In this document: one piece after another, positions 8,804 to 35,924 of the stretch
Numbering within the stretch: the first letter of the stretch is position 1
Layout: each line of letters starts with the position of its first letter
Assembly: GCA_965603595.1 (NCBI GenBank)
Contig: CBFDDP010000004.1
Span: 1 to 57,405, forward strand
DNA from: an uncultured bacterium
GTDB taxonomy: Bacteria > Spirochaetota > B62-G9 > DRHN01
DNA length: 57,405 nt
Direction: 5' to 3'
The notes under the pieces: model-generated
Told to the model about the DNA's origin: nothing
The model's database searches: none
Seen by the model: only the letters and a program-made list of their open reading frames with translations
Position numbers and translations under genes: made by a program

Positions 8804-8836
8804 GCCGTAATTAAACTAATTAAAAAAGGAGGTCCC

Positions 8837-10507: not shown

Positions 10508-10609
10508 GAGTCAAGGGGACAGCTTACTTGATTTCACTTGTTCCCATGACCAGGAGTGAATGAATTACGTATGCTGCCCCCTTATTTCTGTCACCTTGAC
10601 TCGGAGGAG
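10508..10609 (+). promoter_or_regulatory. Structured 5' leader: long-range stem abutting the RBS
   Basis: GAGTCAAGGGGACAG (10508-10522) pairs at 14 of 15 positions with CTGTCACCTTGACTC (10588-10602). The enclosed 65 nt include an inner TTCACT/AGTGAA stem. The GGAGGAG RBS starts 1 nt after the 3' arm. Confidence 0.5.
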
Positions 10610-10617
10610 TGCGAAAA

Positions 10618-20136: not shown

Positions 20137-20158
20137 ATCAACTGAGAGGTTCTTACCT

Positions 20159-22538: not shown

Positions 22539-22868
22539 GCCCCATCTCCTTTTTTCATACTACCCCTTTCAGGCCAGGACTTCCACTTTTTTCTAAAGGG
22601 CATGATTTGTACGGGAAGATCGAGTATATTAGCAGCAGTGAACCGGTTGGAGGTCCGAAATCGGCTCTGGTCAAAGGTGGACTCTCAGATATTGAGGGTT
22701 TTCGCAAGGAGTTTCTGTGCCATCACGGTTTCGGCATGAAAGGCGTGGATTACGAATGGAACGTGGACGTCAAATCCAAAGACCTCAAGTTTGATGTTGT
22801 AGAAGTCACCTAAACCTATTACAATCATGTCCAATTGTAACGCATGAGACGGAGAAAGGAATCTGAGC

Positions 22869-24059
22869 ATGAAGAGCCCGACCTTTCACCAATGGCCTGT
22901 CTGGGATAAGGAAGAGATCGAATCCGTCGGAGGAGTACTTACATCAGGCAACTGGTGGTGCGGTGCACCGGAGGATCAGGTGGGCAAAAATGTGTGGTCT
23001 TTCCAGAAGGAGTTTGCCGCTTTTCAGGAGTCTAAGCACTGTATTGCGGTTTCAAACGGTACGGTTGCCCTGGAGGCTGTTATGCTCGCCCTGGATATCG
23101 GCCTGGGTGATGAGGTCATTGTTTCAGACTATACCTTTGTTGCCTCGGCCAGCGCGGTGATCGCAACGAATGCGGTTCCCATATTCTGCGACATTGATCC
23201 GGAGACCCTGGTCATGGATGTCGAAAGGGCCGCATCACTCATTACTCCGCGTACCAGGGCGATCATAGCGGTACATCTGGGCGGAAACCCAGTGGACATG
23301 GAAGGGGTCTGCACTCTTGCCTCTGACCATGGACTTAAGATAATTGAGGATTGTGCCCATGCGCAGGGCTCCCGCTACAGAGGAAAACGTGTCGGAAACT
23401 GGGGAGATGCCGGGACCTTCAGCTTTCAGGCGTCCAAGGTACTCACGGCGGGAGAGGGTGGAGCGATCATCTGCAATGACGACGATTTGGCGGACAGGAT
23501 CTACAGTGTGACTGATTGCGGCAGGAGGAAGGGCGATTATTTCTATTCCCACTACGAATACGGCACCAATTACCGCATGCCGGAGCTTTCAGCCGCGCTT
23601 CTCCGTGTACAGCTGGGGAGATTCCCCTCACAGCACAAGCTGCGTAATGCCAATGCACGGTATCTTTCCGAGCGGCTACACAGTATAGATGGCATATCGG
23701 TCATGAAACCCACTCCCGGAGCGGATGAAATCGGGTACTATGTGTTCCCCTTTCTCTTCGAGCCTGAGGCTTTCAACGGAATGGGCAAAAAGGAGTTTGT
23801 GGAGAGGCTCCATGCAGGCGGTATTGAGACCGATGACTGTTATCCGCCCCTGCACACCCTTGATTGTTTCAGAAACCGAACTCTTCGGAAGGGAATCGAT
23901 TACACACAGGCCAACTGGGGTGATGAGAGTGGGGGAGACGAGCATTTTCCGGTGGTCTCAGAGGTGTACGAAAGATCGATACAACTTCCACACTACCTGC
24001 TGCTTTCGGAAAAGGAGCAGCTGGATTATATCCTTCGGTACATTGAAAGCCTGAAGTGA
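22869..24059 (+). CDS. DegT/DnrJ/EryC1-family PLP aminotransferase, BtrR/StsC (keto-inositol/keto-sugar:glutamine aminotransferase)-like
   Basis: HQWPVWDKEE N-terminus, FSFQASKVLTAGEGGAI (PLP lysine), GTNYRMPELSAALLRVQL and HFPVVSE. The pattern resembles remembered 2-deoxy-scyllo-inosose aminotransferases. Confidence 0.75.
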   Translation: MKSPTFHQWPVWDKEEIESVGGVLTSGNWWCGAPEDQVGKNVWSFQKEFAAFQESKHCIAVSNGTVALEAVMLALDIGLGDEVIVSDYTFVASASAVIATNAVPIFCDIDPETLVMDVERAASLITPRTRAIIAVHLGGNPVDMEGVCTLASDHGLKIIEDCAHAQGSRYRGKRVGNWGDAGTFSFQASKVLTAGEGGAIICNDDDLADRIYSVTDCGRRKGDYFYSHYEYGTNYRMPELSAALLRVQLGRFPSQHKLRNANARYLSERLHSIDGISVMKPTPGADEIGYYVFPFLFEPEAFNGMGKKEFVERLHAGGIETDDCYPPLHTLDCFRNRTLRKGIDYTQANWGDESGGDEHFPVVSEVYERSIQLPHYLLLSEKEQLDYILRYIESLK

Positions 24060-24176
24060 AAGGAATAATCTATCCTAGGCTCATTCCCTTTTTTATGGTG
24101 ATAATTCGGAATCTATCTTAATGTATGTTCGAAGACCAATAATGACAGGAGCTATTTATGAATATGGAGGAGATGT

Positions 24177-25106
24177 ATGAGAAATAAGAGCAAGGTGGCT
24201 GATGGATGGTGGGACTATACGACTCTGGATGAGCACATACTGGAGGATGCAGCGAAGTTGGTGGCGCAGGACCTGGAACAGCTGTCACGACCGGGGTTCT
24301 CCGTTGTCATGTACGATACGCTCGAGGAGTTTTATCTTGCAGAGGCTATGGAATATATCAGCTCATGGAAACAGGCCACGGACAGTGAACCGGCCGGTAT
24401 CTGCGGGCCTATAGGTCCAACCGAACAGCTGCCGCTCGTGGCCCGAATCGTCAATGATCTTGAGATACAACTTCATAATGCCCATTTCTGGGCCATGGAT
24501 GAGTGGTATATTGACGGGCGAGAGGTGCCTGTGGATCATCCGCTGAGCTTCGCACGAACCGACCTGGAACTCTGCTTCAACAGAATAAAACAGAGCCTGC
24601 GCATGCCGGAGGAAAACATACATTTTCCCCGCTCGGATAACCTGGATGCCTACTCCCGTTCCTATGATGAGTACAGGTGCTGTATCATGCAGGGAGGACA
24701 GGGTGAGGTGAAGCACTGGGCATTCAACGATCCGGTAAAACGGTCGGGTCAGTACAAGGACAACCCTCCGAGTCCTGAGGAGTACAGAAAACTGAAAACC
24801 CGCGTCATCGAACTGCACCCGATGACGATTATTCAGAATGCACGGACTTCCGGAGGGGGGGTTGTGTCGAATGTTCCCAGCCAGGCAATTACCGTGGGTC
24901 CTGTTGAGACGTGGAAATCGGAGAAGGTATCAATATGGCACGCTGGTGTCCATGACAACCCCTTTGGTATGCGCCTGACCACACTCATGATTTCGAAAAA
25001 GCTACCCGATTCATCGGTTCCCATGTCTCTGCTGGCTGATCACTCAAATGTGCAGTTCAATTTTTTCCGGCCTGGTATTGGGGAATGCGAAGCAGAGATG
25101 CACTGA
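24177..25106 (+). CDS. Glucosamine-6-phosphate deaminase/isomerase (NagB)-superfamily protein, divergent
   Basis: FWAMDEWYI (compare NagB FNLDEY) and [14 protein letters not shown] (compare GIGxDGHIAFNEP). It is longer than canonical NagB. Confidence 0.55.
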
Positions 25107-25127
25107 CCGCCTAAGGAGAAGAGCACA

Positions 25128-26195
25128 ATGAAGAAGCTGATCAACAGGCCTGAGGATGTGGTGCGGGAGAGCATGGAGGGAATGGCCCTGGCCCACGGTG
25201 ATATACTGGCCGTCCACTCTGATCCCGGATTCGTCTTCCGCAGGGATGCTCCGGTGAAGGGAAAGGTTTCACTCATATCAGGAGGCGGAAGCGGGCATGA
25301 ACCTCTGCACAGTGGCTTTGTGGGTATGGGGATGCTCGACGCGGCCTGTCCCGGAGAGGTGTTTACGTCTCCAACCCCTGATCAGATGCTGGAGGCGGCA
25401 CGGAAGGTACACGGCGGCAGGGGCGTACTCAACATTGTGAAGAATTACAGCGGCGATGTGATGAACTTCGAAATGGCAGCCGAGCTCATTTCGGGCGAGA
25501 ATATGGATGTACGTAATGTGCTCATCGATGACGACGTGGCGGTGAAGGACAGTCTGTACACGCAGGGGCGGAGGGGCGTCGGAACCACGGTTCTGGCAGA
25601 GAAGATATGCGGTGCCGCAGCCGAGGCAGGCTATGATCTGGAGAAGCTTGCGCAGCTGGGCACCCGCGTCTCTTCGGGTGGACGGAGCATGGGGCTGGCC
25701 CTTACTTCCTGTACCGTACCTGCAAGCGGCGTACCCACCTTTGAGCTCAATGAGAACGAGATGGAGATGGGTATCGGCATACATGGTGAGTCGGGCCGGG
25801 AGAGGAAACTCCTGCTGAGAGCGGACGAAATTACCGAGATCCTCGCCAGCAGTATCATCGAAGATCCAGCCTATACCCGTACCGTCAGGGTATGGGATGG
25901 GGAGCAGTGGCGTGAACAGGAGCTGACCGACAGGTCCTTTCAGCGGGATGAAAGGGTACTCGCTTTTGTAAACGGTATGGGGGGAACACCTCTTTCCGAG
26001 CTGTATATTGTGTTCAGGAAGCTCTGTGATCTCTGTGAGGCGAAGGGTCTGCACATTGTGCGCAGCCTCGTTGGGAACTTCGTCACCTCCCTTGAGATGC
26101 AGGGGTGTTCCATAACACTTCTGAGGGTGGATGACGAGCTCCTGAAGTTGTGGGACGCGCCGGTACGTACGCCTTCACTGAGATGGGGTGTGTGA
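25128..26195 (+). CDS. dhaK: Dihydroxyacetone-kinase substrate-binding subunit DhaK
   Basis: [10 protein letters not shown] and [10 protein letters not shown] (hemiaminal His) motifs; AAGGAG RBS. Confidence 0.9.
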
Positions 26196-26196
26196 G

Positions 26197-26850
26197 ATGG
26201 TTCACAGGGAGCAGATTGAGCAGTGGCTCAGGGTTTCAGCCGGCGTGATGGAGGAGAACAGGGAAACCCTCACGAAGCTCGATGCAGCACTGGGCGATGC
26301 TGACCACGGCATAAACATGGACCGCGGTTTTAAAAAAGTGGTAGCCATGCTCGACAGTAAGCCGGCCGGCGATATCGGTGCCCTTCTCAAGCAAGCGGGC
26401 ATGACGCTCATCTCCTCGGTGGGAGGTGCGAGCGGCCCCCTGTACGGCACCTTTTTCATGAGGGCGGGTATGGCGGTTGCCGGGAAGGAGACGCTGGAAA
26501 CCGATGATCTGGCCGCCCTGCTCGAGGAGGGGTGTAGAGGGGTTATGGAGCGTGGAAGGGCGCAGGCAGGGGAGAAGACGATGGTGGACGCCCTGCTTCC
26601 AGCGGCCCGTGCACTGGAGGAGGCCGCTCGGAAGGGTTTGGATACAACGGATGCGACAGGCAGTGCTGCCCGTGAAGCCTGCCGGGGAGCGAAGGAAACC
26701 ATTCCCCTCATTGCGCGAAAGGGCCGTGCAAGCTACCTTGGCGACCGGAGCAAAGGGCATCAGGACCCTGGCGCAACCTCCTCCTGCCTCATCATTAAAG
26801 CGCTGCACGATGTACTTGCGGCCCACTCCCCGGCCCTGCAGAAAGGCTGA
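26197..26850 (+). CDS. dhaL: Dihydroxyacetone-kinase ADP-binding subunit DhaL
   Basis: LDAALGDADHGINMDRGF and GGASGPLYGTFF motifs. Confidence 0.9.
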   Translation: MVHREQIEQWLRVSAGVMEENRETLTKLDAALGDADHGINMDRGFKKVVAMLDSKPAGDIGALLKQAGMTLISSVGGASGPLYGTFFMRAGMAVAGKETLETDDLAALLEEGCRGVMERGRAQAGEKTMVDALLPAARALEEAARKGLDTTDATGSAAREACRGAKETIPLIARKGRASYLGDRSKGHQDPGATSSCLIIKALHDVLAAHSPALQKG

Positions 26851-26853
26851 TTC

Positions 26854-29343
26854 GTGGTAGGGATTGTCATCGTCACCCATAGCAGGGAGCTTGCCGAGTC
26901 GGTGATCGCACTGGCCGGGCAGATGCTTCGCAAGGAGGTTCCCCTTGTTGCAGCCGGTGGTGTAGACGATCTCAAGCATCCCTTTGGAACCGATGTACCA
27001 AAGATAATCGCGGCAGTGGAATCCGTATACAGTGATGACGGTGTGCTGGTGCTGATGGACATGGGAAGTGCCCTTCTCAGTGCTGAAACTGCACTCGAGT
27101 TTCTGACGGAAAAACAGAAAAACCGTGTTCTTCTCTGCGAGGCACCTCTGGTTGAGGGAGCGGTTGCAGCCGCCGTCTGTTCAGAGGGCGGCGGAACACT
27201 CGATGAGGTAGCCCGTGAAGCTCGTGGCGCATTGCAGAGTAAGAAAGAACAACTCAGGGGGGAGCCCTCGGCCATCTCCGATTCTGACATGGACGGGGTT
27301 GTGGCCAAAGTCCGTGTCACTGTACAAAATCCGCTCGGTATCCATGCACGCCCTGCAGCAGCGCTTGTTTCCACGGCTTCCCGGTTTAAATCCACGGTCA
27401 TGGTTCGGAACGCAAGCAGGGGAAGCGGTGCAGTGAACGCACGGAGCATCAACCAGGTTTCTCTGCTGGGTGTACAGCAGGGAGATGAGATTGTGCTGAG
27501 TGCATCGGGGCCTGATGCGGATACTGCACTTGCTGAGCTCAAAACACTCGTTGAGAGCGGATTCGGAGAGTCGGAGCGCCGTATCGAATTGGGTACACCT
27601 GCTGCTCGTGACAGCGATGTGTCCCGGAAAGGCGGACTGTCTGGTGTCGCCGCATCTCCGGGCGTTGCCCTTGCACCGTGCCTGCTGTTCAAACCTCATG
27701 TACATGCACTGCCCCCGCGTGAACCGCAAGAACCCGAAGAAGAGTGGGCGAAGCTCACTGCTGCCATCGATGCAGTGAAGCTGGAACTTCGTGGGATGAG
27801 GGACAGGGTAGCGGCCAGGGCAGGTGATGGTGAGGCATCCATCTTTGATGCACATCTCCTCATGCTCGACGATGAGGAGCTCCTCCGTTTAGTCCATTCG
27901 AATGTATACACAGGTAAGATGAATGCAGAGCAGTCCTGGGCTGCATCGGTGGAGGAACTTCTTCAGTCATACGGCCATCTTGATTCTTCCTATCAGCGTG
28001 AACGGGGAAGGGACCTGGAGGACTTGAGGGTGCAGGTGCTTGCAATGCTCACGGGCGGTCAATCGAGAACCTTTGAGGTCGATGATGAAGCTATTGTGAT
28101 TGCAGCCGATCTCACACCTTCCGATATCGCCCTCTTCGACACCGCGAAAATAATCGGGCTGTGTACGGCCTACGGAGGTCCCACATCCCACAGTGTAATT
28201 CTCGCGATGGCACTCGGCATTCCTGCGGTTGTAGGTCTGGGGCTCGAAATCCTCCGTGTTCCCGAGGGAAGGATGGTTGCGATAGACGGTGAAGAGGGCA
28301 CAGTGTGGGTGGATCCGGAGGACCCTGATTCGTTCAGGTCCAAAAGGAGCCGATGGTTACAGTCCCGCACAGGGCCATCAACCACTGTACGGAAAGGGGT
28401 CTCAACGGTTGACGGCAGGAAGATACGCATCGTTGCGAATATCAGCAGCCTGATGGAAGCTGAAAGGGCGGTTCAATTGGGGGCCGATGGTGTCGGTGTG
28501 CTGAGAACGGAATTCCTCTTCATGAGGCGGCCTCATGCACCGTCGGAGGAGGAACAGGCAGAAATGTACCGTTCCATAGCGGACAGGATAGGTACAGGAC
28601 CGTTCATAATCAGAACCCTTGATGCCGGTGGCGACAAGCCGCTTGCCTATGTGCCCATGACAGGGGAGGCGAATCCCTTTCTCGGGGTAAGGGGCCTGCG
28701 GCTCTCCCTTGAGCACCCGGAGCTGTTTATGGTTCAGCTGCGTGCTATCTTGAGGGCCAGTCAGGGCAGGAATGTGGGTATTCTGCTTCCCATGGTATCA
28801 TCTGCTGATGAGATCAGGGAGGCCAGGGGGTATCTCACACGGGCCCAAAGGGAACTGAAGAATGAGAATGTTCCCTTTGACGACGGGGTGAAGCTCGGCA
28901 TCATGGTTGAGGTCCCTGCTGCGGCGCTTATCGCAGAGCGTCTGGCAGGGGAGGTTGACTTCATGAGTATAGGGACCAACGACCTGAGCCAGTACGTCCT
29001 GGCTGCCGACCGTGGCAGCGAGCGGGTATCTTCCCTGTGTGATGCCCTGCATCCGGCTGTTCTCCATCTTATACAGCTGACCGCCCAAGCCTGTCATGGT
29101 TCAGGAAAATGGGCAGGGATCTGTGGAGAGGTGGCGGGGGACAGGTCTGCCTTACCGGTGTTGCTGGGACTTGGAGTCGACGAGCTGAGCATGAATCCAT
29201 ACTCCATCCCGATGATCAAGGAAGCGGTATCACAGCTCCACCTCCGGGAAGCTTCCACACTCGCAGCGGAGGCTCTGCAGCTGAGCGATCCCCGGCAGGT
29301 GAGGAGGCTGGTTTCCCAGAGGCTGGGCGCCGCATTCGAGTAG
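26854..29343 (+). CDS. dhaM: Multiphosphoryl-transfer protein: DhaM (EIIA-Man-like) + HPr + full-length PTS Enzyme I
   Basis: GIVIVTHS (EIIA-Man His), VTVQNPLGIHARPAA (HPr His15), GGPTSHSVILA (EI His) and SIGTNDLSQY (PEP-utilising C-terminal domain). Confidence 0.85.
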   Translation: MVGIVIVTHSRELAESVIALAGQMLRKEVPLVAAGGVDDLKHPFGTDVPKIIAAVESVYSDDGVLVLMDMGSALLSAETALEFLTEKQKNRVLLCEAPLVEGAVAAAVCSEGGGTLDEVAREARGALQSKKEQLRGEPSAISDSDMDGVVAKVRVTVQNPLGIHARPAAALVSTASRFKSTVMVRNASRGSGAVNARSINQVSLLGVQQGDEIVLSASGPDADTALAELKTLVESGFGESERRIELGTPAARDSDVSRKGGLSGVAASPGVALAPCLLFKPHVHALPPREPQEPEEEWAKLTAAIDAVKLELRGMRDRVAARAGDGEASIFDAHLLMLDDEELLRLVHSNVYTGKMNAEQSWAASVEELLQSYGHLDSSYQRERGRDLEDLRVQVLAMLTGGQSRTFEVDDEAIVIAADLTPSDIALFDTAKIIGLCTAYGGPTSHSVILAMALGIPAVVGLGLEILRVPEGRMVAIDGEEGTVWVDPEDPDSFRSKRSRWLQSRTGPSTTVRKGVSTVDGRKIRIVANISSLMEAERAVQLGADGVGVLRTEFLFMRRPHAPSEEEQAEMYRSIADRIGTGPFIIRTLDAGGDKPLAYVPMTGEANPFLGVRGLRLSLEHPELFMVQLRAILRASQGRNVGILLPMVSSADEIREARGYLTRAQRELKNENVPFDDGVKLGIMVEVPAAALIAERLAGEVDFMSIGTNDLSQYVLAADRGSERVSSLCDALHPAVLHLIQLTAQACHGSGKWAGICGEVAGDRSALPVLLGLGVDELSMNPYSIPMIKEAVSQLHLREASTLAAEALQLSDPRQVRRLVSQRLGAAFE

Positions 29344-29387
29344 GCAGGAGCACATATGTAAAGAATCAAAAGATCCGGGACAGTGAT

Positions 29388-30614
29388 ATGAAAAAGAGAA
29401 TCGCGATTGTCGGCACACTGGACACCAAGGGAAGAGAATATGCCTTTTTAAAACAGGCCATAGAGGAGCAGGGACTGGAGACCCTCGTCATTGACGCGGG
29501 AGTCATGGGAGAGCCGCAGCTCAAGCCGGATATCGGGCGTGACAGGACAGCCGAAGCGGGGAAGGGGTCCATCAAAGCACTGCGAAAAAAGGGCGACCGG
29601 GGTGAGGCCGTGACCGTCATGGGCCGGGGAGTATCGGTTCTGCTCCCCGAGCTCTACAGCAGCGGAATGATACATGGCGTCATTGCACTGGGAGGAGGGG
29701 GAGGGACGTCGATCGCCTGCGCGGGGATGCGGGCGCTGCCTCTCGGTGTGCCCAAGGTGATGGTCTCCACCGCTGCAGGAGGAGACGTCTCGGGATTTAT
29801 AGGCATCAAAGACATTGTTATGGTGCCGAGTATCGTTGATGTGTCGGGCATCAACAGGATAAGCAGCGGTGTTTTTCAGCGGGCCGCAGCTGCAGTGTGT
29901 GCCATGGTGGAGGCGTACGTGGATGACAAATCGGACAGGCCCCTGATAGCCGCGACCATGTTTGGCAACACCACACCTGCGGTTGAAACTGCGCGGCACA
30001 TGCTCGAGAAGTCGGGCTACGAGGTGGTCGTGTTTCCCTGTTCAGGAACAAGCGGAAGGGTGATGGAGGAGCTCATCGCTTCGGGCTACATCACCGGTGT
30101 ACTCGACATGACGACCACGGAATGGGCCGATCAGCTCGTGGGCGGGGTTCTTGCGGCCGGTGAGGAGCGTATGGACGCGGCGGCAGAGCGAGGCATCCCC
30201 CAGGTTGTTGTTCCGGGCTGCCTCGATATGGTGAACTTCTGGGAGCCCGCATCTGTTCCCGATCGGTTCAATGGAAGGACATTCTATCAGCATAACCCGA
30301 ATATTACGCTCATGAGAACATCGGTGGATGAGAACAGAGAGCTGGGCCGCATACTGACTGGGAAGCTCAACAGGAGCACCGGCAGCGTGGCGGTCTTCAT
30401 ACCGCTGAGGGGTCTGAGCATGATCGATGCTCCGGGGGGCGCTTTCTGGCTGCCCGAAGCTGATCGTGCACTGTTCGATGAGCTGAAGGAGAACCTGAGA
30501 GAGGACATACCTGTGACAGAGCTTGACTGCAACATCAACGAACCAGAATTTGCCCTTGCATGCGCGAAGGCACTGCTCGAGATGCTCCGGAATAGGCGTG
30601 GTATTGAGGGGTGA
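29388..30614 (+). CDS. UPF0261 / Tm-1-like ATP-binding protein, copy 1
   Basis: MKKRIAIVGTLDTKGREYAFLKQAIEEQGLETLVIDAGV. Full-length paralogue of 33045-34265. The ORF-track start at 29109 overlaps ptsI and is rejected. Confidence 0.75.
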   Translation: MKKRIAIVGTLDTKGREYAFLKQAIEEQGLETLVIDAGVMGEPQLKPDIGRDRTAEAGKGSIKALRKKGDRGEAVTVMGRGVSVLLPELYSSGMIHGVIALGGGGGTSIACAGMRALPLGVPKVMVSTAAGGDVSGFIGIKDIVMVPSIVDVSGINRISSGVFQRAAAAVCAMVEAYVDDKSDRPLIAATMFGNTTPAVETARHMLEKSGYEVVVFPCSGTSGRVMEELIASGYITGVLDMTTTEWADQLVGGVLAAGEERMDAAAERGIPQVVVPGCLDMVNFWEPASVPDRFNGRTFYQHNPNITLMRTSVDENRELGRILTGKLNRSTGSVAVFIPLRGLSMIDAPGGAFWLPEADRALFDELKENLREDIPVTELDCNINEPEFALACAKALLEMLRNRRGIEG

Positions 30615-30710
30615 AATTCTTTTATCGGATGTTATGAAAACTGACGAATGGTATAATAAGAGGTGTCCGAAGCACGGTGTACGTGAAGCGCTCAACAGAG
30701 GGAAGAACCG

Positions 30711-31202
30711 ATGATCGGCTATAGATTCCTGAAATCCCACTGTCTCTTCGGTGGACTCACTGAAACGGATATCGAAATGATCAGACCCCTCTTGAAGGAG
30801 GAGCAGTACGGCAGTGAGGAGATTATCGTTGAGGAGGGAGGGCAGGGTGACCGGGTATACTTCATAAGTGAGGGATCGGTTGAAGTACTCAAAAAGGTGA
30901 AGCTGTCCAAAGGTACAGTGGTGCAGAGAATAGCCACGCTCGAGGTCGGTGATACCTTCGGTGAAATGGAACTCCTCGATGTACAACCCTGCATTGCCAC
31001 GGTTCGAACGCTTGAACCCACGTCCGTTTTAACCCTCTCGAATATGAACCTGTACCGAATATCCAAGATAAATCTCAAAACCTACACTATGATCATCCTG
31101 AACCTGGCACGTGCAATCAGCAGGCGTTTACGGCGCATGGATGCACTGGTTGCCGGGTCCCTCTTTGCAGCAGAAGAGGGGAAGCGTGAGGGCTCATCCT
31201 GA
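30711..31202 (+). CDS. Stand-alone cyclic-nucleotide-binding (cNMP) domain protein
   Basis: GDRVYFISEGSVEV...GDTFGEMELLD...ATVRTLE, the beta-roll/PBC pattern of CAP-family cNMP domains. No DNA-binding domain. Confidence 0.7.
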   Translation: MIGYRFLKSHCLFGGLTETDIEMIRPLLKEEQYGSEEIIVEEGGQGDRVYFISEGSVEVLKKVKLSKGTVVQRIATLEVGDTFGEMELLDVQPCIATVRTLEPTSVLTLSNMNLYRISKINLKTYTMIILNLARAISRRLRRMDALVAGSLFAAEEGKREGSS

Positions 31203-31214
31203 CGGTTAATACCA

Positions 31215-32054
31215 TCACTTAATCTTCAGATTCTTGAATGCCGAAGCCACGTTAAGTATGGCATCCTCGAGGGGAATGCGCTCAGTGGCAGAGCCTGTCT
31301 GCAGCCCGTGTCCGTCAGTAAGGTCAAGGATCTTCTGCCCGCTCCCTGGGTCAGACAGTGCGGCACCATGGGTGAGGAGTATGATGTCCTTCTTGATCTT
31401 TCGTGCTGTGTTATACATCTCCTGTGTCCGTGCAGCCGTGTCCTTCACGGTGTCGGGGTGATCGTAGCCGATTGATCCTCCGACAGTTGTACCCGCATGG
31501 AAGATGAACACGTCAGGGTCAGCTCCTTTCATAATGCGTTCCGTTTCCGACATGTTGAAGGCATAGGCAACGGTCACCATCCCCATTTCCTTCGCAGTTT
31601 TCAGCATCTCTATCTCATTGTCATAGGTGATGCCCGTGTGTTCAAGAACATTGCGGAAGTTTCCGTCGATGAGTCCGACGGTCGGAAAGTTATTTACACC
31701 GATGATGCCGATACGCATCAGCTCCCCGAGGAAGTGAGGGATTTCCCTGGTCGGATCGTTGGCATTCACCCCGGCCATGATCGGCATGTCCCTGACAACG
31801 GGCATTATTTCTCGGGAGGCGTACTCGAACATCAGACCGTTCGCATCGGACACGGGCCACATGCCCGTCATGGACCCCGCGCCATAGCTGCGCAGTTTGA
31901 CAGCGTTGTACACGCCGGCCATGTCGCATCCTGACCGTTCCAGAAACTTGGCAACGATGCCGGAGCCGCAGCTTGCCATGAACAGTGCACGGCCTGCCTG
32001 TATTTCCTTTCGCAATCTCTCGAGAACCTCTTCCCGCGTAAATCTTCGCGCCAT
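31215..32054 (-). CDS. Phosphoenolpyruvate-hydrolase-like TIM-barrel protein (C-terminal-half equivalent of Tm-1)
   Basis: MARRFTREEVLERLRKEIQAGRALFMASCGSGIVAKFLERSGCDMAGVYN opening, typical of the PF09370-type family that partners UPF0261. GGGAGGA RBS. Confidence 0.7.
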   Translation of the reverse strand: MARRFTREEVLERLRKEIQAGRALFMASCGSGIVAKFLERSGCDMAGVYNAVKLRSYGAGSMTGMWPVSDANGLMFEYASREIMPVVRDMPIMAGVNANDPTREIPHFLGELMRIGIIGVNNFPTVGLIDGNFRNVLEHTGITYDNEIEMLKTAKEMGMVTVAYAFNMSETERIMKGADPDVFIFHAGTTVGGSIGYDHPDTVKDTAARTQEMYNTARKIKKDIILLTHGAALSDPGSGQKILDLTDGHGLQTGSATERIPLEDAILNVASAFKNLKIK

Positions 32055-32134
32055 ACTGTCCTCCCTTCACATGTGGAAAAGGCCTGTGCAGCATCCGCCG
32101 CACCGCCCCTGCTTCATACGCAGACTTTTTTTGA

Positions 32135-33025
32135 TCATACCCTGCCGGTACTTCCGAACAACTCCATAAGTGAGCGAACTGCATCGCCGATGGCTTCGTC
32201 TGTTCCACCGAACAGGTCGAAAGCACCCCCTGCCCCGAGGACCTCATATCCGGGGTACCGGGAACCGGTATTCGAAGCTCGTTCCTGTATCGAATGGAAT
32301 GCGGCCTTCTTCACGGCCCTGCCGATGTTCACCTTTCGTATACCGGCCCGGATCGCCTCTCTCATGGACTGCTCGTCCACGCTCGAGCCGGCGTGCAGCA
32401 CAAGGGGAATGTTGAGTTTTACCCCTAACCTCTCAATGAGCCCGATGTCGAGCTCGACCCCCCCCTCAAGGTCTGAGTGGCGGTTCCCGACAACCACACC
32501 GAGCGCATCGATATCCGTCTTTTGAACGAACTCCTCCGCTTCATCGGGATCGGTCATCGAAAAATCACTGCCGCGGGCGTGAGGAGCGTCAGGCGGTTCT
32601 CCCATCTCCGCCTCCACGGCAATACCACGCCCGTGGGCCTTCTTTGCAAGTGCCCCTATCTTTGCGACCCGCTTCTCATAGGGCAACCCTTCATCGCTGT
32701 ACATGACCAGGTTGAAGCCATGCTCCATTGAATCGTAGACCCAGTCGAGAAAATAGGATTCGTTGAAGATGTATGAAACAGGCACCTGGGCAGCTTCTGC
32801 GGCAGCTCTGCCGGCCTGTGCATAGGATGCGAACCAGCGAAGCTCCTCACCGAGAAATCGGGGGAGATATATACCGCTGAATCCCACGATAACAGGTGAA
32901 CGGGCAGCCTCGGCTGCTCGCAGGACTGCGATGAGCGAGTGCAGGTCCCAGGTTTCGAAATAGCCGACAGCGTAGGACCCTGCTTTCGCCTGGTCCATCA
33001 TATCGTTGAAGGGAATCAGTGGCAT
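32135..33025 (-). CDS. Class II fructose/tagatose-bisphosphate aldolase-family protein with an atypical active-site motif
   Basis: Family blocks GFNLVMYSDEG, VEAEMG, GNRH and LVLHAGSS are present. The canonical HLDH block reads IFNE (VPVSYIFNES). Confidence 0.7.
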   Translation of the reverse strand: MPLIPFNDMMDQAKAGSYAVGYFETWDLHSLIAVLRAAEAARSPVIVGFSGIYLPRFLGEELRWFASYAQAGRAAAEAAQVPVSYIFNESYFLDWVYDSMEHGFNLVMYSDEGLPYEKRVAKIGALAKKAHGRGIAVEAEMGEPPDAPHARGSDFSMTDPDEAEEFVQKTDIDALGVVVGNRHSDLEGGVELDIGLIERLGVKLNIPLVLHAGSSVDEQSMREAIRAGIRKVNIGRAVKKAAFHSIQERASNTGSRYPGYEVLGAGGAFDLFGGTDEAIGDAVRSLMELFGSTGRV

Positions 33026-33044
33026 GTCAGTCTTCTCCTCTGTG

Positions 33045-34265
33045 CTATTGTTTCACCATTGTGATGAGATGTTCTGCGGCCTCGGTAGCAAAGGCGGGAT
33101 CGTTTATGTCGAGCTCCCGAATGTGAAGGGGGATGTCCCGCCTGAGCACCTCTTTCAAAGTTTCCACATAGATACGGTCGGCCTCAGGATTGTACAACGG
33201 TCCGCCCGGGGTGGAGTAGGAGCAGAAACCCTTCATGGGTATGAACCACTCAATGGGGCCCTTCCCAGGATTTACCCGTTCGGCCTGTACCCTGGCAAGG
33301 GCCCGCAGCTCGTCCGCGTTGGTACGTACGTTGGTGTACAGTGCGCTGTGACGAACGAGCTGCCGCCCCCTGAACTTTTCGGGAATTGTTTCAGGGGGGC
33401 CATAGGTATTACAGGTCACAGCGCCGGGGCAGATAACCTGCGGTATGCCCAAGCTTGTCGCCACGGTCATGCGCTCGGAGGTTGCCGCGAGGTAGCCGCC
33501 GAGCATCTCCTGAATCACCTCGATGGTGGCTAGATCGAGCACCCCGTTGATCTGTCCCTCTTTCATGAGTGATTCCATTGCCCTGCCGCCGGTCCCCACT
33601 GCATGGAAGACGATGGTGTCGAATCCGGCCTCACCCAGTACTTCCTTTGCCTTCATCGCACCGGGCGTGGTTATGCCGACAGTGGTAATCGCAATGAGGG
33701 ACTGTTCCCGTTCCGCAGCTTCGATTTCCGTCCGGGCCATTCCCGCGATAGCGCCTGCGGCACGCCCGAGTATTTTACGGCTCACCCTGTTCAGTCCCAT
33801 GATATCTGCGACCGAAAACATCATGGTGATGTCCTTGATTCCCACGAGATTCGAGGTATTGCCCGAAGCCATGGTGGAGACGAGGAGCTTGGGGAATCCC
33901 ACGGGAAGCTCCTGCATGACGAGCGCTGCAAGTGTACTTCCCTGCGTGCCACCGCATGATATGATTCCGTGTACCTTTCCTGATGCGAGCAGTTCATTTA
34001 CGACTACTGCAGCCCCCCGTGCCATAACCGGAGATATCCTCTCCCGTGTGGGGCCTTCGGCAAAAAGCGCGTTAAAGTCCTCGCCTGCTGCTTTTGCAAC
34101 CTCACGCCTCGTTATATCGGGGTCGAAGAGCGGCGGATTGATCACGCCCACATCCACGGTGAGTGTGCTACAGCCCGCCTTCTCGATATGCCTCCTGATA
34201 AAGGTGTATTCCTCACCTTTCGTGTCCATACAGCCGAGAATGACGATTCTCCTCTTCATAGACAC
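33045..34265 (-). CDS. UPF0261 / Tm-1-like ATP-binding protein, copy 2
   Basis: MSMKRRIVILGCMDTKGEEYTFIRRHIEKAGCSTLTVDVGV. AGGAGG RBS. First gene of a minus-strand three-gene operon. Confidence 0.75.
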   Translation of the reverse strand: MSMKRRIVILGCMDTKGEEYTFIRRHIEKAGCSTLTVDVGVINPPLFDPDITRREVAKAAGEDFNALFAEGPTRERISPVMARGAAVVVNELLASGKVHGIISCGGTQGSTLAALVMQELPVGFPKLLVSTMASGNTSNLVGIKDITMMFSVADIMGLNRVSRKILGRAAGAIAGMARTEIEAAEREQSLIAITTVGITTPGAMKAKEVLGEAGFDTIVFHAVGTGGRAMESLMKEGQINGVLDLATIEVIQEMLGGYLAATSERMTVATSLGIPQVICPGAVTCNTYGPPETIPEKFRGRQLVRHSALYTNVRTNADELRALARVQAERVNPGKGPIEWFIPMKGFCSYSTPGGPLYNPEADRIYVETLKEVLRRDIPLHIRELDINDPAFATEAAEHLITMVKQ

Positions 34266-34439: not shown

Positions 34440-35819
34440 TTAGTGCAACAGAGAGTCCCTTAAGGATTGTATCAGCAGATGCACCTGCCTGGTAAAATGG
34501 TTGAGAGCAAAGGGCTTTTCAATAACCCCGGCAGCTCCCTCTTTGAGCAGCTTCCGGGTCGATCGATCATTGGGGAATCCCGTAATAATAAGGACCTTGA
34601 CCTGCGGGTTTATATTTTGTAATTGACGGTAACATTCCAGACCGCCCATGCAGGGCATGACCACATCGAGTATCACGAGGTCGATGTCATCTGCGTACTT
34701 CTCATATATGCGGAGTGCCTTCCGGCCGTCTTCGGAGACAAGGGGGTTGTACCCACAGTTCTTCAAAATGCTCACGGCAAGCTCCCTGACCTGTTTTTCG
34801 TCCTCGACCAGAAGAATGGTCCCACTACCCCTCACAAGGGCCGGTATGACTGTCTCCTCTTCCTCATGCTGCGCTGTGCCATCAATGGCGGGAAGATATA
34901 CCTCAAAGGTGCTTCCTCCTCCCACCGTGCTTCTGATATCGATAAACCCGCCGTGCTTCTGAACAATGCCGTAGACAACCGAGAGACCGAGGCCCGTTCC
35001 TGACCGATCGCCCTTGGTGGTGAAGAAGGGTTCGAAGAGCCGCTCCAGAACCTCGGGGGTCATGCCTGTACCGTTGTCCGTTATGCTGAGTCGAACATAC
35101 TTTCCCGGCTGTGCGTTGAAGTGATGCAGTGCTCCTGTTTTGTCAAGAAGCACGTTGTCAGTCTCGAGGAGGATGACACCGTCTTCCTGAAATTCGTCTG
35201 ATGTTTCGCTGTTCAGTGTATCCTCAATGGCATCCCGGGCATTCACACAGAGGTTCATGATCATACGGCTTAACTGGGAATTATCAGCCTCGATGATGCT
35301 CAGGCCCGGGTACAGCTTCGTCCTCAATTCTATATCCGGGGGAAGCGTTCCTTTCAGGAGATTGTTTGTTTCCTCGATGAGCGTATTCAGGTTAAGCGGC
35401 ATTGACTTACTGGATGCCTGGCGTGTAAAGAGGCGCAGCTGATTGGTGAAGTCTTTTCCCCTGTCGCAGGCTATCTTTATCTGCATCAGGCTATTGTACA
35501 GCTCACTGTCGGGTGAGAGAGACAGCAGTTCCAGCTCTGTAAACCCGTTTATTACCTGGAGCAGGTTGTTGAAATCGTGCACAATACCGCCTGCAAGGTT
35601 GCCAAGCGCTTCGAGTTTCAGCGCCTGCTTGAACTGGGAGGTGAGCCTCCTCTGCTCATTCAACCCCTCGATGCGGTATCCATTATTCGGTTCAGCAGTG
35701 TCAGGAAGGACCGTTTTAGTGATTTCTTTGCAGAGCTCTGTTTGGCCATCATGGATACGTTTCATGATGGTACGCAGCTGTTCTTTTGTGACGAGGGGAC
35801 GGTAGAGCTGTTCTATCAT
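34440..35819 (-). CDS. Cytoplasmic hybrid sensor histidine kinase / response regulator
   Basis: H-box GGIVHDFNNLL, N-box NLCVNARDA, G-boxes DNGTGM and GTGLGLS. C-terminal canonical REC (LLVEDE, LVILDVVMP, IITG, EKPF). No TM helices. The start is uncertain (35819 or GTG 35885). Confidence 0.8.
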   Translation of the reverse strand: MIEQLYRPLVTKEQLRTIMKRIHDGQTELCKEITKTVLPDTAEPNNGYRIEGLNEQRRLTSQFKQALKLEALGNLAGGIVHDFNNLLQVINGFTELELLSLSPDSELYNSLMQIKIACDRGKDFTNQLRLFTRQASSKSMPLNLNTLIEETNNLLKGTLPPDIELRTKLYPGLSIIEADNSQLSRMIMNLCVNARDAIEDTLNSETSDEFQEDGVILLETDNVLLDKTGALHHFNAQPGKYVRLSITDNGTGMTPEVLERLFEPFFTTKGDRSGTGLGLSVVYGIVQKHGGFIDIRSTVGGGSTFEVYLPAIDGTAQHEEEETVIPALVRGSGTILLVEDEKQVRELAVSILKNCGYNPLVSEDGRKALRIYEKYADDIDLVILDVVMPCMGGLECYRQLQNINPQVKVLIITGFPNDRSTRKLLKEGAAGVIEKPFALNHFTRQVHLLIQSLRDSLLH

Positions 35820-35924
35820 AGGGCACCCGTTTGTATATATTCTCCACGCACCTATATTTTCGGTATGGGCGGGGAAAAAATACACCCCCAGATCTTATGT
35901 ATGATAGATTCCTAGAGGTTTGTT

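What the first reader, a model, noticed from the sequence alone, without database searches (positions are those of the whole stretch)
22869..34265. Convergent 11-kb cluster joining a PTS-type DHA kinase to two Tm-1-like (UPF0261) proteins, a PEP-hydrolase-like TIM barrel, an atypical aldolase and an inosose-type aminotransferase
The plus arm carries a BtrR/StsC-like DegT aminotransferase, a divergent NagB-superfamily protein, DhaK, DhaL, a DhaM-HPr-EI fusion, UPF0261 copy 1 and a stand-alone cNMP-binding protein.

The minus arm converges on it, 12 nt apart at 31202/31215. It carries UPF0261 copy 2, a class II aldolase homologue and a PEP-hydrolase-like TIM barrel.

UPF0261 plus the PEP-hydrolase-like barrel are the two halves of plant Tm-1. 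As far as I know, they have no established biochemical function in bacteria.

Here they are embedded among enzymes that make, phosphorylate and cleave small ketoses or amino-ketoses. That gives a concrete metabolic context and suggests an undescribed amino-sugar, aminocyclitol or ketose catabolic pathway.
Basis: partly seen in the sequence, partly recalled or inferred. Interest (0 to 1): 0.75.

Follow-up and report, generated by a model that had tools for sequence, protein, structure and literature searches.

The report
Modular Tm-1-like kinase / DHA-kinase gene cluster
An uncultivated spirochaete carries a real, conserved cluster built around two Tm-1/MarK-type ATP-binding kinases, their TIM-barrel partner and an unusual aldolase-like enzyme, and its neighbours give a testable metabolic context for protein families whose normal function is still almost unknown.

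Summary

The cluster is modular. The core is UPF0261-1, a non-canonical cNMP-domain protein, PEP_hydrolase, an aldolase-like gene and UPF0261-2. It is intact and under strong purifying selection (dN/dS 0.07-0.12) in every relative seen.

DegT and dhaKLM are ancestral, because the full arrangement recurs in a relative with about 70% protein identity. They were deleted independently in two closer lineages.

The minus arm belongs to a widespread triad that the searchable literature does not describe: UPF0261, PEP_hydrolase and a class-II-aldolase subfamily. In this subfamily the catalytic Asp-His is replaced by an invariant Asn-Glu (79 of 80 loci). Elsewhere the triad sits in sugar-type operons with a SorC regulator, a xylose-isomerase-like TIM barrel, a formyltransferase-like gene and lipoyl-E1/E2 genes.

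The best reading is a catabolic route for a small (amino-)hydroxyketone or ketose. The substrate and the chemistry are inferred, not shown.

The parts
22869..24059 (+). DegT/DnrJ/EryC1-family PLP aminotransferase. It is an accessory module, ancestral to the clade and lost in close relatives.
   Evidence: Pfam PF01041, E = 1.7e-100. No NCBIfam equivalog cut-off is reached. The best PDB relatives are AHBA synthase 1B9H and BtrR 2C7T, E about 1e-60. The gene is absent from L001 and L003. L004 keeps only its last 83 bp. A 394-aa DegT gene (Pfam PF01041) occupies the corresponding position in the 70% relative.
22854..24066 (.). 9-nt direct repeat GAAAGGAAT (22854-22862 and 24058-24066) that brackets the DegT gene.
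   Evidence: Read directly from the sequence. Strain L001 has a single copy of the repeat and no DegT. This fits a precise repeat-mediated deletion.
24177..25106 (+). 309-aa NagB-fold enzyme ('N309'), probably an amino-sugar deaminase or aldose-ketose isomerase.
   Evidence: No Pfam family. TIGR00502 scores 28.5 bits against a cut-off of 236.9. The AlphaFold model has pLDDT 80 and pTM 0.83. The top 20 Foldseek PDB hits are GlcN6P deaminases, E about 1e-15. There are more than 8000 homologues, 73-79% identical across phyla. In three distant genomes the next gene is a PIG-L deacetylase.
25128..26195 (+). DhaK, the dihydroxyacetone-binding subunit of a PTS-type DHA kinase.
   Evidence: TIGR02363 scores 464.5 against a cut-off of 406. 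E = 7e-128 to E. coli DhaK structures. The [14 protein letters not shown] and GIGIHGE motifs are kept.
26188..26850 (+). DhaL, the ADP-binding subunit.
   Evidence: TIGR02365 scores 248 against a cut-off of 138.
26854..29343 (+). DhaM fusion of EIIA-man, HPr and full-length Enzyme I. It is a self-contained phosphoryl relay starting from PEP.
   Evidence: All five Pfam domains are present. The motifs VTHS, GIHARPA, GGPTSHS and ICGE are in the translation.
29388..30614 (+). UPF0261 copy 1 (Tm-1/MarK family). It has no cognate PEP_hydrolase gene of its own, and a Pro replaces the MarK acceptor-binding His.
   Evidence: PF06792 plus PF23189. E = 3e-67 to MarK 9MPY. The DTKG Lys is kept. The 'VFPCSGTSG' motif is shared with its nearest clade. 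Orthologues elsewhere are followed by a PEP_hydrolase gene in 44 of 67 loci. L176 and L166 still have that partner.
30711..31202 (+). Stand-alone cNMP-binding-domain protein with no output domain and a non-canonical phosphate-binding cassette.
   Evidence: PF00027, E = 2.7e-15. It lies between the two UPF0261 units in the window and in every relative of this clade where that stretch is on the contig: L001, L002, L004, L005, L174, L175, L176, L166 and the contig. Arg and Ser/Thr of the cassette are replaced by Cys/Ser/Ala and Ile/Val in all nine matched loci (five distinct lineages).
31215..32054 (-). PEP_hydrolase-like TIM barrel, the partner of UPF0261 copy 2.
   Evidence: PF09370, E = 5e-83. 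E = 5.5e-59 to 2P10. It is 84-86% identical to the barrel next to copy 2 in L174 and L176, but only 37-41% identical to barrels next to copy-1 orthologues.
32135..33025 (-). Class-II-aldolase homologue of the 'FNE' subfamily.
   Evidence: PF01116, E = 4e-49, but far below all NCBIfam cut-offs. The best PDB hit is YdjI 6OFU. The Asp-His of the 'LDH' motif is replaced by invariant Asn88-Glu89, while His183, His211 and Glu138/140 are kept. The FNE motif occurs in 79 of 80 homologous loci.
33045..34259 (-). UPF0261 copy 2 (Tm-1/MarK family). It keeps both the ATP Lys and the acceptor His.
   Evidence: PF06792 plus PF23189. E = 3.4e-66 to MarK. It has DTKG and VFHAVGTGG. It is 41% identical to copy 1. 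A promoter-like site lies at 34316-34288; this is a consensus match only.
34440..35885 (-). Hybrid histidine kinase/receiver directly upstream of the minus arm. Its membership of the system is uncertain.
   Evidence: HisKA, HATPase_c and Response_reg. It is syntenic in L001, L004, L005 and L088. It is not adjacent in the 70% relative.

Best explanation
The region is a modular catabolic locus of an uncultivated spirochaete.

Shown:

- The core is two diverged MarK/Tm-1-family UPF0261 proteins facing each other, with a small CRP-type ligand-binding protein between them.
- On the minus arm sit the TIM-barrel partner of copy 2 and an aldolase-like metalloenzyme whose Asp-His is replaced by Asn-Glu.
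- This core is conserved and under purifying selection.
- The minus-arm triad is widespread and lies in sugar-type operons elsewhere.
- DegT, the NagB-fold 309-aa protein and a self-sufficient PEP-driven DhaKLM are ancestral add-ons that can be lost.

Inferred mechanism:

1. A small amino- or hydroxy-ketone or ketose is stripped of its amino group by the DegT transaminase and/or the NagB-like deaminase-isomerase.
2. It is phosphorylated by UPF0261 at the expense of ATP, as MarK does (ATP to ADP).
3. The PEP_hydrolase-like barrel and the Asn-Glu aldolase-like enzyme rearrange and cleave the phosphorylated ketone into C3-level products.
4. Any free dihydroxyacetone or other short ketose is captured as DHAP by DhaK/DhaL. 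These are charged from PEP through the fused EI-HPr-EIIA protein.
5. The cNMP-domain protein probably senses a non-cyclic-nucleotide ligand and modulates the two kinase units.
For: -
- UPF0261 kinase chemistry is documented in PMC12624787. The ATP-contacting Lys is conserved in both copies, and the acceptor His is conserved in copy 2.
- UPF0261 and the TIM barrel co-evolve and are fused in plant Tm-1 (PMC5028733).
- The full arrangement is conserved at about 70% identity and includes ABC permeases. dhaKLM sits directly upstream of copy 1 in a third lineage.
- Core genes are intact, with dN/dS 0.07-0.12 against L004, which lacks DegT and dhaKLM.
- The triad of UPF0261, PEP_hydrolase and FNE-aldolase is present in 22 of 31 aldolase loci that have enough flank.
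- The recurrent operon elsewhere is SorC, AP_endonuc_2, UPF0261, PEP_hydrolase, Formyl_trans, aldolase, E2, lipoyl-E1alpha, E1beta.
- Copy-1 orthologues sit next to sugar ABC transporters, Gfo/Idh/MocA enzymes and xylose-isomerase-like barrels (these family names were assigned by eye from the sequences and were not checked against Pfam).
- There is a precedent for an aldolase that uses free DHA being linked to a PTS EI-like protein: the E. coli gldA-fsaB-ptsA operon (PMC6643234).
Against: - No substrate, product or activity has been shown for any protein here.
- DegT and dhaKLM were lost twice while the core persisted, so the core does not need them.
- Outside this spirochaete clade the plus-arm genes are not linked to UPF0261.
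- Copy 1 lacks both its barrel partner and the MarK acceptor His, so it may not be a kinase.
- The aldolase-like protein lacks the catalytic Asp and may not cleave C-C bonds at all.
- MarK works without a TIM barrel, so the role of the barrel is pure inference.
- The window has no transporter next to the cluster.
- No terminators or promoters were found above background.
Confidence: 0.4

Rival explanations
1. The region holds two independent units that merely abut. The plus arm would be an ordinary DHA/glycerol-type and amino-sugar utilisation operon. The minus arm would be a separate copy of the widespread triad of UPF0261, PEP_hydrolase and aldolase. There would be no shared pathway.
For: - The triad occurs in dozens of loci without any plus-arm gene.
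- dhaKLM and DegT are lost without affecting the rest.
- The one outside case of DhaKL near UPF0261 (L054) is a GlpF-DhaKL unit.
- The 309-aa protein normally pairs with a PIG-L deacetylase, not with UPF0261.
Against: - The convergent pairing of UPF0261-1 and cNMP against PEP_hydrolase and UPF0261-2 is kept in every member of the clade where both arms lie on the contig, from 66% to 96% identity.
- dhaKLM is inserted immediately upstream of UPF0261-1, with a 44-bp gap, in three lineages.
- The whole arrangement recurs at about 70% identity.
Confidence: 0.25
2. The core is a regulatory or signalling device rather than a set of enzymes. The ATP-binding UPF0261 proteins, the so-called 'TIM-barrel signal transduction' protein, the cNMP-domain protein and the adjacent hybrid histidine kinase would sense a metabolite and control other genes. 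The metabolic genes would be targets or bystanders.
For: - A stand-alone ligand-binding protein always lies between the two units.
- A hybrid kinase-receiver gene is adjacent.
- HD-GYP-type and PAS-kinase genes lie near UPF0261 pairs in L166 and L179.
- Tm-1 itself acts by binding, not catalysis (PMC5028733).
- Copy 1 has lost the MarK acceptor His.
Against: - MarK is a true enzyme.
- The triad is embedded between catabolic enzymes and under SorC/DeoR regulators in most loci.
- The histidine kinase is not conserved next to the cluster at 70% identity.
- Signalling genes are common neighbours everywhere.
Confidence: 0.15
3. The cluster is a biosynthetic locus for a modified amino sugar or aminocyclitol, for example a cell-surface or secondary metabolite. 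DegT would install an amine, and the other enzymes would build the carbon skeleton.
For: - The nearest solved relatives of the DegT protein are biosynthetic enzymes (AHBA synthase, BtrR).
- Formyltransferase-like genes accompany the triad elsewhere.
- One locus (L100) has a DegT gene upstream of the triad.
Against: - No glycosyltransferase, nucleotidyltransferase, cyclase or exporter is linked.
- ABC importer permeases, SorC/DeoR regulators, a DHA kinase and 2-oxoacid/acetoin-type E1/E2 genes are typical of catabolism.
- DegT is dispensable.
Confidence: 0.1
4. The cluster is a MarK-like pathway for aromatic ketones, with phenol phosphorylation followed by carboxylation.
For: Both copies are clear homologues of MarK, E about 1e-66.
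Against: - No acvCDEF-type biotin carboxylase or phosphatase genes are in the window neighbourhood.
- MarK His348, which binds the ketone, is Ile in copy 1 and Tyr in copy 2. His219 is Pro in copy 1.
- Neighbours everywhere are sugar-type genes.
Confidence: 0.05

Closest known systems
MarK (Saro_1862) of Novosphingobium aromaticivorans, PDB 9MPY. It is the only UPF0261 protein with a demonstrated activity (PMC12624787).
   Same: Same two-domain UPF0261 architecture, E about 1e-66. The DTKG lysine that contacts ATP is conserved. Copy 2 keeps the His that hydrogen-bonds the phosphoryl acceptor.
   Different: MarK is a lone homodimeric kinase at the head of an acetovanillone carboxylase operon. 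Here there are two paralogues, a TIM-barrel partner, an aldolase-like gene and sugar-type neighbours. The ketone-binding His348 is not conserved, and copy 1 has Pro instead of His219.
Plant Tm-1 / Tm-1-like protein, a fusion of UPF0261 and the TBST (PEP_hydrolase) domain (PDB 3WRV-3WRY; PMC5028733).
   Same: Same two families, which co-evolve. They are split into neighbouring genes here, as in most bacteria.
   Different: Tm-1 is known only as a stoichiometric inhibitor of tobamovirus replicase. Here copy 2 is separated from its barrel by an aldolase-like gene, and copy 1 has no barrel of its own.
PTS-dependent dihydroxyacetone kinase DhaKLM of E. coli (PDB 1OI2, 4LRX; PMC6643234).
   Same: DhaK and DhaL pass the equivalog cut-offs. 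The DHA-binding His and Asp motifs and all three phospho-His motifs of the relay are present.
   Different: DhaM is fused to a complete Enzyme I, so the kinase can draw on PEP without a general PTS. There is no DhaR regulator. The operon continues into a UPF0261 gene.
Class II ketose-(bis)phosphate aldolases: YdjI (6OFU), FbaA, GatY/KbaY.
   Same: Same PF01116 TIM-barrel fold. Two of the three metal-binding His residues and the VEAE glutamates are kept.
   Different: The catalytic Asp and the first Zn-binding His ('LDH') are replaced by invariant Asn-Glu ('FNE'). All curated family cut-offs are missed. The genomic partners are UPF0261 and PEP_hydrolase, not sugar kinases of known type.
NagB glucosamine-6-phosphate deaminase.
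   Same: Same fold by Foldseek, E about 1e-15. MDEW and H-x-A-F-N-D-P motifs resemble the NagB MDEY and DGHIAFNEP motifs (judged by eye).
   Different: About 18% identity. It scores far below the NagB cut-off and has 40-50 extra residues. It forms its own very conserved family, usually next to a PIG-L deacetylase.
DUF1537 four-carbon acid-sugar kinase pathways (OtnK, OtnC, OtnI) and the Lsr (phospho-AI-2) pathway. These resemblances are from my own knowledge and are analogy only.
   Same: The logic is alike: a novel kinase, an aldolase-fold enzyme and a TIM-barrel isomerase convert a small oxo-sugar to DHAP, with or without an acyl-CoA, under a SorC- or LsrR-type regulator.
   Different: The protein families are unrelated, and no homology was tested or is implied.

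Membership tests
UPF0261 / MarK-type kinase | Both UPF0261 domains (PF06792 and PF23189) score above the gathering cut-off. | tested here: met
   Copy 1 scores 203 and 301 bits. Copy 2 scores 207 and 235 bits.
UPF0261 / MarK-type kinase | The ATP-contacting lysine (MarK K16, Tm-1 K20) in the D-T-K-G motif. | tested here: met
   GTLDTKG in copy 1 and GCMDTKG in copy 2. D12, T13 and K14 are invariant in alignment A1.
UPF0261 / MarK-type kinase | The His that hydrogen-bonds the phosphoryl-acceptor oxygen (MarK His219). | tested here: inconclusive
   His is present in copy 2 (VFHAVG). Pro is present in copy 1 and its nearest clade (VFPCSG).
UPF0261 / MarK-type kinase | The aromatic-ketone pocket (MarK His348) and linkage to the acvCDEF carboxylase and phosphatase. 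| tested here: not met
   the residue is Ile in copy 1 and Tyr in copy 2. No carboxylase or phosphatase genes are among the neighbours.
UPF0261 / MarK-type kinase | ATP-dependent phosphorylation that yields ADP. | not testable with these tools
   This needs an enzyme assay.
Split Tm-1-like pair (UPF0261 plus PEP_hydrolase/TBST) | A UPF0261 gene next to a PF09370 gene on the same strand. | tested here: met
   Met for copy 2, with the aldolase-like gene in between. The barrel is the orthologue of copy-2 partners elsewhere. Not met for copy 1, whose partner is missing here but present in L176 and L166.
PTS-dependent DHA kinase (DhaKLM) | DhaK and DhaL score above the NCBIfam equivalog cut-offs. 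| tested here: met
   TIGR02363 scores 464.5 against 406.25. TIGR02365 scores 248.1 against 138.3.
PTS-dependent DHA kinase (DhaKLM) | The DHA-binding residues of DhaK: the His that forms the hemiaminal, plus the Asp and His of the active site. | tested here: met
   GIGIHGE, KNYSGD and GGGSGHEP align with E. coli DhaK. Residue roles are from my own knowledge of the E. coli enzyme.
PTS-dependent DHA kinase (DhaKLM) | A phosphoryl relay of EIIA-man His, HPr His and EI His, with the EI PEP-binding domain. | tested here: met
   Five Pfam domains. The motifs VTHS, GIHARPA, GGPTSHS and ICGE are present.
Class II fructose/tagatose-bisphosphate aldolase | The PF01116 fold. | tested here: met
   (168 bits).
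Class II fructose/tagatose-bisphosphate aldolase | The catalytic Asp and the adjacent Zn-binding His (the 'LDH' motif). | tested here: not met
   They are replaced by Asn88-Glu89, which is invariant in the subfamily (79 of 80 loci have FNE).
Class II fructose/tagatose-bisphosphate aldolase | A score above any curated equivalog cut-off. | tested here: not met
   The best score is 152 bits against a cut-off of 423.
NagB glucosamine-6-phosphate deaminase | Sequence-family membership (TIGR00502 or Pfam Glucosamine_iso). | tested here: not met
   28.5 bits against a cut-off of 236.9. No Pfam hit even at E = 10.
NagB glucosamine-6-phosphate deaminase | The NagB fold. | tested here: met
   The model has pTM 0.83. 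The top 20 PDB matches are GlcN6P deaminases, with TM-scores of 0.56-0.63 on the query and 0.67-0.78 on the target.
Inosose-type (BtrR/StsC) aminotransferase | The DegT fold and closest similarity to enzymes that act on free carbocycles rather than NDP-sugars. | tested here: inconclusive
   AHBA synthase and BtrR rank first (E = 2e-60 and 1e-59). Perosamine synthetase is close behind (E = 5e-53). Substrate class cannot be assigned.
cAMP/cGMP-binding CRP-type domain | The PF00027 domain. | tested here: met
   (56.5 bits).
cAMP/cGMP-binding CRP-type domain | The Arg and Ser/Thr of the phosphate-binding cassette that hold the cyclic phosphate. | tested here: not met
   The motif is FGEMELLDVQP[C/S/A][I/V]AT in all nine matched loci (five distinct lineages). 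The motif was aligned to the CRP cassette by eye, from my own knowledge.

The most novel reading that the evidence does not exclude
The triad of UPF0261, PEP_hydrolase and the Asn-Glu 'aldolase' is the catalytic heart of a widespread and so far undescribed catabolic pathway. In most carriers it is extended by a xylose-isomerase-like barrel, a formyltransferase-like protein and a lipoylated E1/E2 complex. In this reading the ATP-dependent Tm-1-type kinase and its PEP-mutase-like barrel activate a small oxo-sugar or hydroxyketone, possibly as an enol phosphate, for C-C cleavage to DHA or DHAP plus an acyl unit. That would define the ancestral biochemical job of both halves of plant Tm-1.
Probability: 0.3. 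Interest if true: 0.75.

Novelty: new variant of a known kind. Interest (0 to 1): 0.55.

Why it matters
UPF0261 and its PEP_hydrolase-like partner are found across bacteria, archaea, fungi and plants, where they are fused as the virus-resistance protein Tm-1. Yet only one UPF0261 protein, MarK, has a known activity, and the barrel has none.

This locus and its relatives supply three concrete handles:

- A third, always co-located enzyme: the Asn-Glu aldolase subfamily.
- A recurrent 7-9-gene sugar-type operon in which to look for a substrate.
- A natural experiment. DegT and dhaKLM were lost twice while the core stayed constrained, which separates obligatory components from optional ones.

Together these make the function of the families directly testable by genetics and enzymology.

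Tried and rejected
- A megablast of the 11.4-kb region against all complete E. coli genomes found no match, so this is not an enterobacterial island.
- An exact-sequence look-up of the window's own UPF0261-1 found nothing on record. The organism was inferred from a 96% homologue named as a Spirochaetes MAG.
- Literature searches for UPF0261, Tm-1-like, PF09370, PF06792, COG5441, COG5564, 'PEP hydrolase' and Mll9387 found nothing on bacterial function beyond MarK and the co-evolution papers.
- An anti-phage defence reading, prompted by the antiviral role of Tm-1, was rejected. PADLOC gives no hit for the core. Only the generic cNMP domain resembles the sensor domains of Pycsar effectors.
- The single outside link between DhaKL and UPF0261 (L054) was examined and set aside. 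There DhaKL follows a MIP/GlpF channel gene and is separated from the UPF0261 pair by DUF362 and LplA-like genes.
- Homologues of the formyltransferase, E1/E2, xylose-isomerase-like barrel, PIG-L and the 160-aa gene were searched for in the window and not found.
- The promoter and terminator scan gave counts no higher than in shuffled sequence, so no operon boundaries are claimed.
- A Pfam scan of PEP_hydrolase at E = 10 gave no second family that would hint at its chemistry.

Full report
**1. What is in the window**

Plus strand:

- A DegT-family aminotransferase, 22869-24059.
- A 309-aa protein with no Pfam family and only a weak NagB hit, 24177-25106.
- DhaK, 25128-26195, and DhaL, 26188-26850. 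Both score above their NCBIfam equivalog cut-offs.
- An 829-aa fusion of EIIA-man, HPr and complete Enzyme I, 26854-29343.
- UPF0261 copy 1. Its real start is the ATG at 29388, giving 408 aa.
- A 163-aa protein that consists of a cNMP-binding domain only, 30711-31202.

Minus strand:

- UPF0261 copy 2, 33045-34259.
- A PF01116 aldolase homologue, 32135-33025.
- A PEP_hydrolase (PF09370) TIM barrel, 31215-32054.

The two arms end 12 nt apart.

Flanking genes:

- Upstream lie G6PD, a GH3 hydrolase, an ARMT1-like phosphatase, GreA and a DinB-like gene.
- Beyond the minus arm lie a hybrid histidine kinase/receiver, an EamA transporter and a DUF2807 protein.

The closest database relatives are from Spirochaetes MAGs. 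There is no match in E. coli genomes.

**2. Individual proteins**

*DhaK and the relay protein.* DhaK matches the solved E. coli DhaK structures over its full length (E = 7e-128) and keeps the [14 protein letters not shown] and GIGIHGE motifs. The relay protein keeps the three phospho-His motifs and the EI PEP-binding domain. This is therefore a self-sufficient PEP-driven DHA kinase. The mechanism is as described for E. coli in PMC6643234.

*DegT.* Its best solved relatives are AHBA synthase and the 2-deoxy-scyllo-inosose aminotransferase BtrR. NDP-sugar enzymes are close behind, so substrate class cannot be assigned.

*The 309-aa protein.*

- The model is good (pLDDT 80, pTM 0.83).
- All of its top 20 PDB fold matches are glucosamine-6-phosphate deaminases.
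- It belongs to a very large, very conserved family: more than 8000 homologues, 73-79% identical across phyla.
- In three distant genomes the gene is followed immediately by a PIG-L-type deacetylase gene.

*The two UPF0261 copies.*

- They are 41% identical to each other.
- Each matches MarK (9MPY) and Tm-1 at E about 1e-57 to 1e-80.
- MarK is an ATP-to-ADP kinase for phenolic ketones and the first UPF0261 protein with a known activity (PMC12624787).
- Both copies keep the ATP-contacting Lys.
- Copy 2 keeps the His that binds the acceptor oxygen in MarK. Copy 1 and its nearest clade have Pro there.
- The ketone-binding His348 of MarK is not conserved in either copy.

*The aldolase homologue.*

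- Its best solved relative is YdjI.
- The catalytic Asp and the adjacent metal-binding His are replaced by Asn88-Glu89.
- This 'FNE' motif is invariant in an alignment of 20 relatives and present in 79 of 80 homologous loci.
- The other two His ligands are kept.
- It is a distinct subfamily and may not be an aldolase in the strict sense.

*The cNMP-domain protein.* It lacks the Arg and Ser/Thr of the phosphate-binding cassette in all nine matched loci, which represent five distinct lineages.

**3. Close relatives: what is conserved and what is not**

Contigs that carry UPF0261-1 homologues gave the following picture.

| Relative (identity of UPF0261-1) | Arrangement |
|---|---|
| L001, L002, L003 (96%) | Collinear with the window. 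DegT is precisely missing between two copies of a 9-nt repeat, GAAAGGAAT. dhaKLM is reduced to fragments by nested internal deletions. |
| L004, L005 (89%) | Only the last 83 bp of DegT remain. dhaKLM is cleanly deleted. |
| L174, L175 (78%) | dhaKLM-UPF0261-cNMP converging on PEP_hydrolase-UPF0261. No 309-aa gene. L175 shows that the aldolase gene is absent; L174 ends before that position. |
| JGI contig (about 70%) | Full arrangement, extended upstream: ABC permeases, URO-D-like, DegT, PTE, 309-aa, DhaK, DhaL, DhaM/HPr/EI, UPF0261, cNMP, converging on PEP_hydrolase, aldolase, UPF0261. |
| L176, L166 (66-67%) | UPF0261-1, its own PEP_hydrolase, a 160-aa gene and cNMP, converging on PEP_hydrolase-UPF0261-2. 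|

Three conclusions follow.

- The invariant core of this clade is two convergent UPF0261 units with the cNMP protein between them.
- DegT, the 309-aa gene, dhaKLM and the aldolase-like gene are modules. DegT and dhaKLM were ancestral to the window lineage and were lost at least twice.
- The window's single PEP_hydrolase is the orthologue of the copy-2 partner (84-86% identity). It is not the copy-1 partner (37-41% identity). Copy 1 has therefore lost its own barrel.

Core genes are intact in the strains that lack DegT and dhaKLM. They show dN/dS of 0.07-0.12 against L004.

**4. Distant relatives**

*Copy-1 orthologues.* A scan of one genome per species with a copy-1 alignment returned 80 loci, 51-65% identical, from Planctomycetota, Chloroflexota, Verrucomicrobiota and other phyla.

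- 44 of the 67 loci with enough flank have a PEP_hydrolase gene directly adjacent.
- None has the aldolase, 309-aa, cNMP or DegT genes.
- One locus (L054) has DhaKL, but behind a GlpF-type channel gene.
- Recurrent further neighbours look like sugar ABC transporter components, Gfo/Idh/MocA oxidoreductases, xylose-isomerase-like barrels, SDR enzymes and cupins. These names were assigned by eye from the representative sequences and were not checked against Pfam.

*FNE-aldolase relatives.* A metagenome scan with the FNE-aldolase alignment returned 80 loci.

- 22 of the 31 loci with at least 3.5 kb upstream carry a copy-2-type UPF0261 (about 50% identity) and a PEP_hydrolase (about 47% identity) just upstream.
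- The recurrent gene order is SorC regulator, AP_endonuc_2 barrel, UPF0261, PEP_hydrolase, formyltransferase-like, FNE aldolase, E2, lipoyl-E1alpha, E1beta.
- L086 and L087 share the window's order, and L087 also has the formyltransferase-like gene.

The minus arm is thus a member of a widespread triad embedded in sugar-type catabolic operons. I found no description of it in the searchable literature. That literature documents only the co-evolution of UPF0261 and the barrel (PMC5028733; PMC8963296).

**5. Interpretation**

The most economical reading is a modular catabolic locus. The shown facts are gene identity, conservation, selection and neighbourhoods.

The inferred mechanism has three steps.

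1. Amine removal by DegT and/or the NagB-like enzyme.
2. ATP-dependent phosphorylation by UPF0261.
3. Conversion or cleavage by the barrel and the Asn-Glu enzyme, with PEP-dependent capture of free DHA or another short ketose by DhaKLM.

The E. coli gldA-fsaB-ptsA operon is a precedent for linking a DHA-producing or DHA-using aldolase with a PTS EI-like protein.

I give this reading 0.4. The rivals are:

- Two independent units that merely abut, 0.25.
- A sensory or regulatory device, 0.15.
- Biosynthesis of an amino sugar or aminocyclitol, 0.1.
- MarK-like aromatic-ketone catabolism, 0.05.

A defence role is not supported.

**6. Verdict**

The system is a new variant of a known kind, namely a catabolic cluster built on a MarK-family kinase. 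Its value is that it makes the function of the Tm-1 halves testable. Interest is 0.55.

Noticed in passing
window 10609-12651: A corrinoid (B12-binding) protein gene is followed by a full-length MtmB-family methyltransferase gene of 464 aa that covers the whole Pfam model with no in-frame stop. It is therefore a non-pyrrolysine MtmB homologue in a spirochaete.
   Followed up: no
window 22854-22862 and 24058-24066; L001 4513-4522: A 9-nt direct repeat, GAAAGGAAT, brackets the DegT gene. The 96% strain has one copy of the repeat and no DegT, which looks like a repeat-mediated precise deletion.
   Followed up: yes
window 25144-29383, compared with L001, L003 and L004: dhaKLM is decaying in sister strains. 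L001 and L003 lack 25244-25646. L001 also lacks 26091-28945, and L003 lacks most of 26264-28918. L004 has a clean deletion of about 25144-29383. The flanking genes stay intact.
   Followed up: yes
window 24177-25106; L169, L172, L173: The 309-aa NagB-fold protein defines a very large family with no Pfam model: more than 8000 homologues of constant length, 73-79% identical across phyla. In distant genomes it sits directly upstream of a PIG-L deacetylase gene. This suggests an uncharacterised deacetylase/deaminase pair.
   Followed up: partly
L098, L106, L118, L120, L122, L124, L144, L157 (metagenome loci): A recurrent 7-9-gene operon has the order SorC, AP_endonuc_2, UPF0261, PEP_hydrolase, Formyl_trans, FNE aldolase, E2, lipoyl-E1alpha, E1beta. 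I found no description of it in the searchable literature.
   Followed up: partly
window 29388-30614, residue 217: The His equivalent to MarK His219 is Pro in copy 1 and in its nearest clade ('VFPCSGTSG'), and Gly in P0031. More distant copy-1 orthologues keep His.
   Followed up: partly
window 30711-31202: The stand-alone cNMP-domain protein lacks the Arg and Ser/Thr of the phosphate-binding cassette in all nine matched loci (five distinct lineages). Its only PADLOC similarity is to the cNMP-sensor part of Pycsar effectors.
   Followed up: partly
window 18442-21388: A GH3 hydrolase gene followed by an ARMT1-like damage-control phosphatase gene is syntenic in L001 and L004. L174 begins within the ARMT1-like gene, so GH3 cannot be seen there. 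The real start of the ARMT1 gene is probably near 20159, not 19964.
   Followed up: no
window 34440-35885: The hybrid histidine kinase/receiver has only about 90 residues ahead of HisKA and no recognisable sensor domain. The GTG start at 35885 may be over-extended, because the L001 alignment crosses a stop near the N-terminus.
   Followed up: no
window 6669-10303: An aldo/keto reductase fused to a 4Fe-4S dicluster domain, a D-2-hydroxyacid dehydrogenase and a sodium:solute symporter lie in a row.
   Followed up: no
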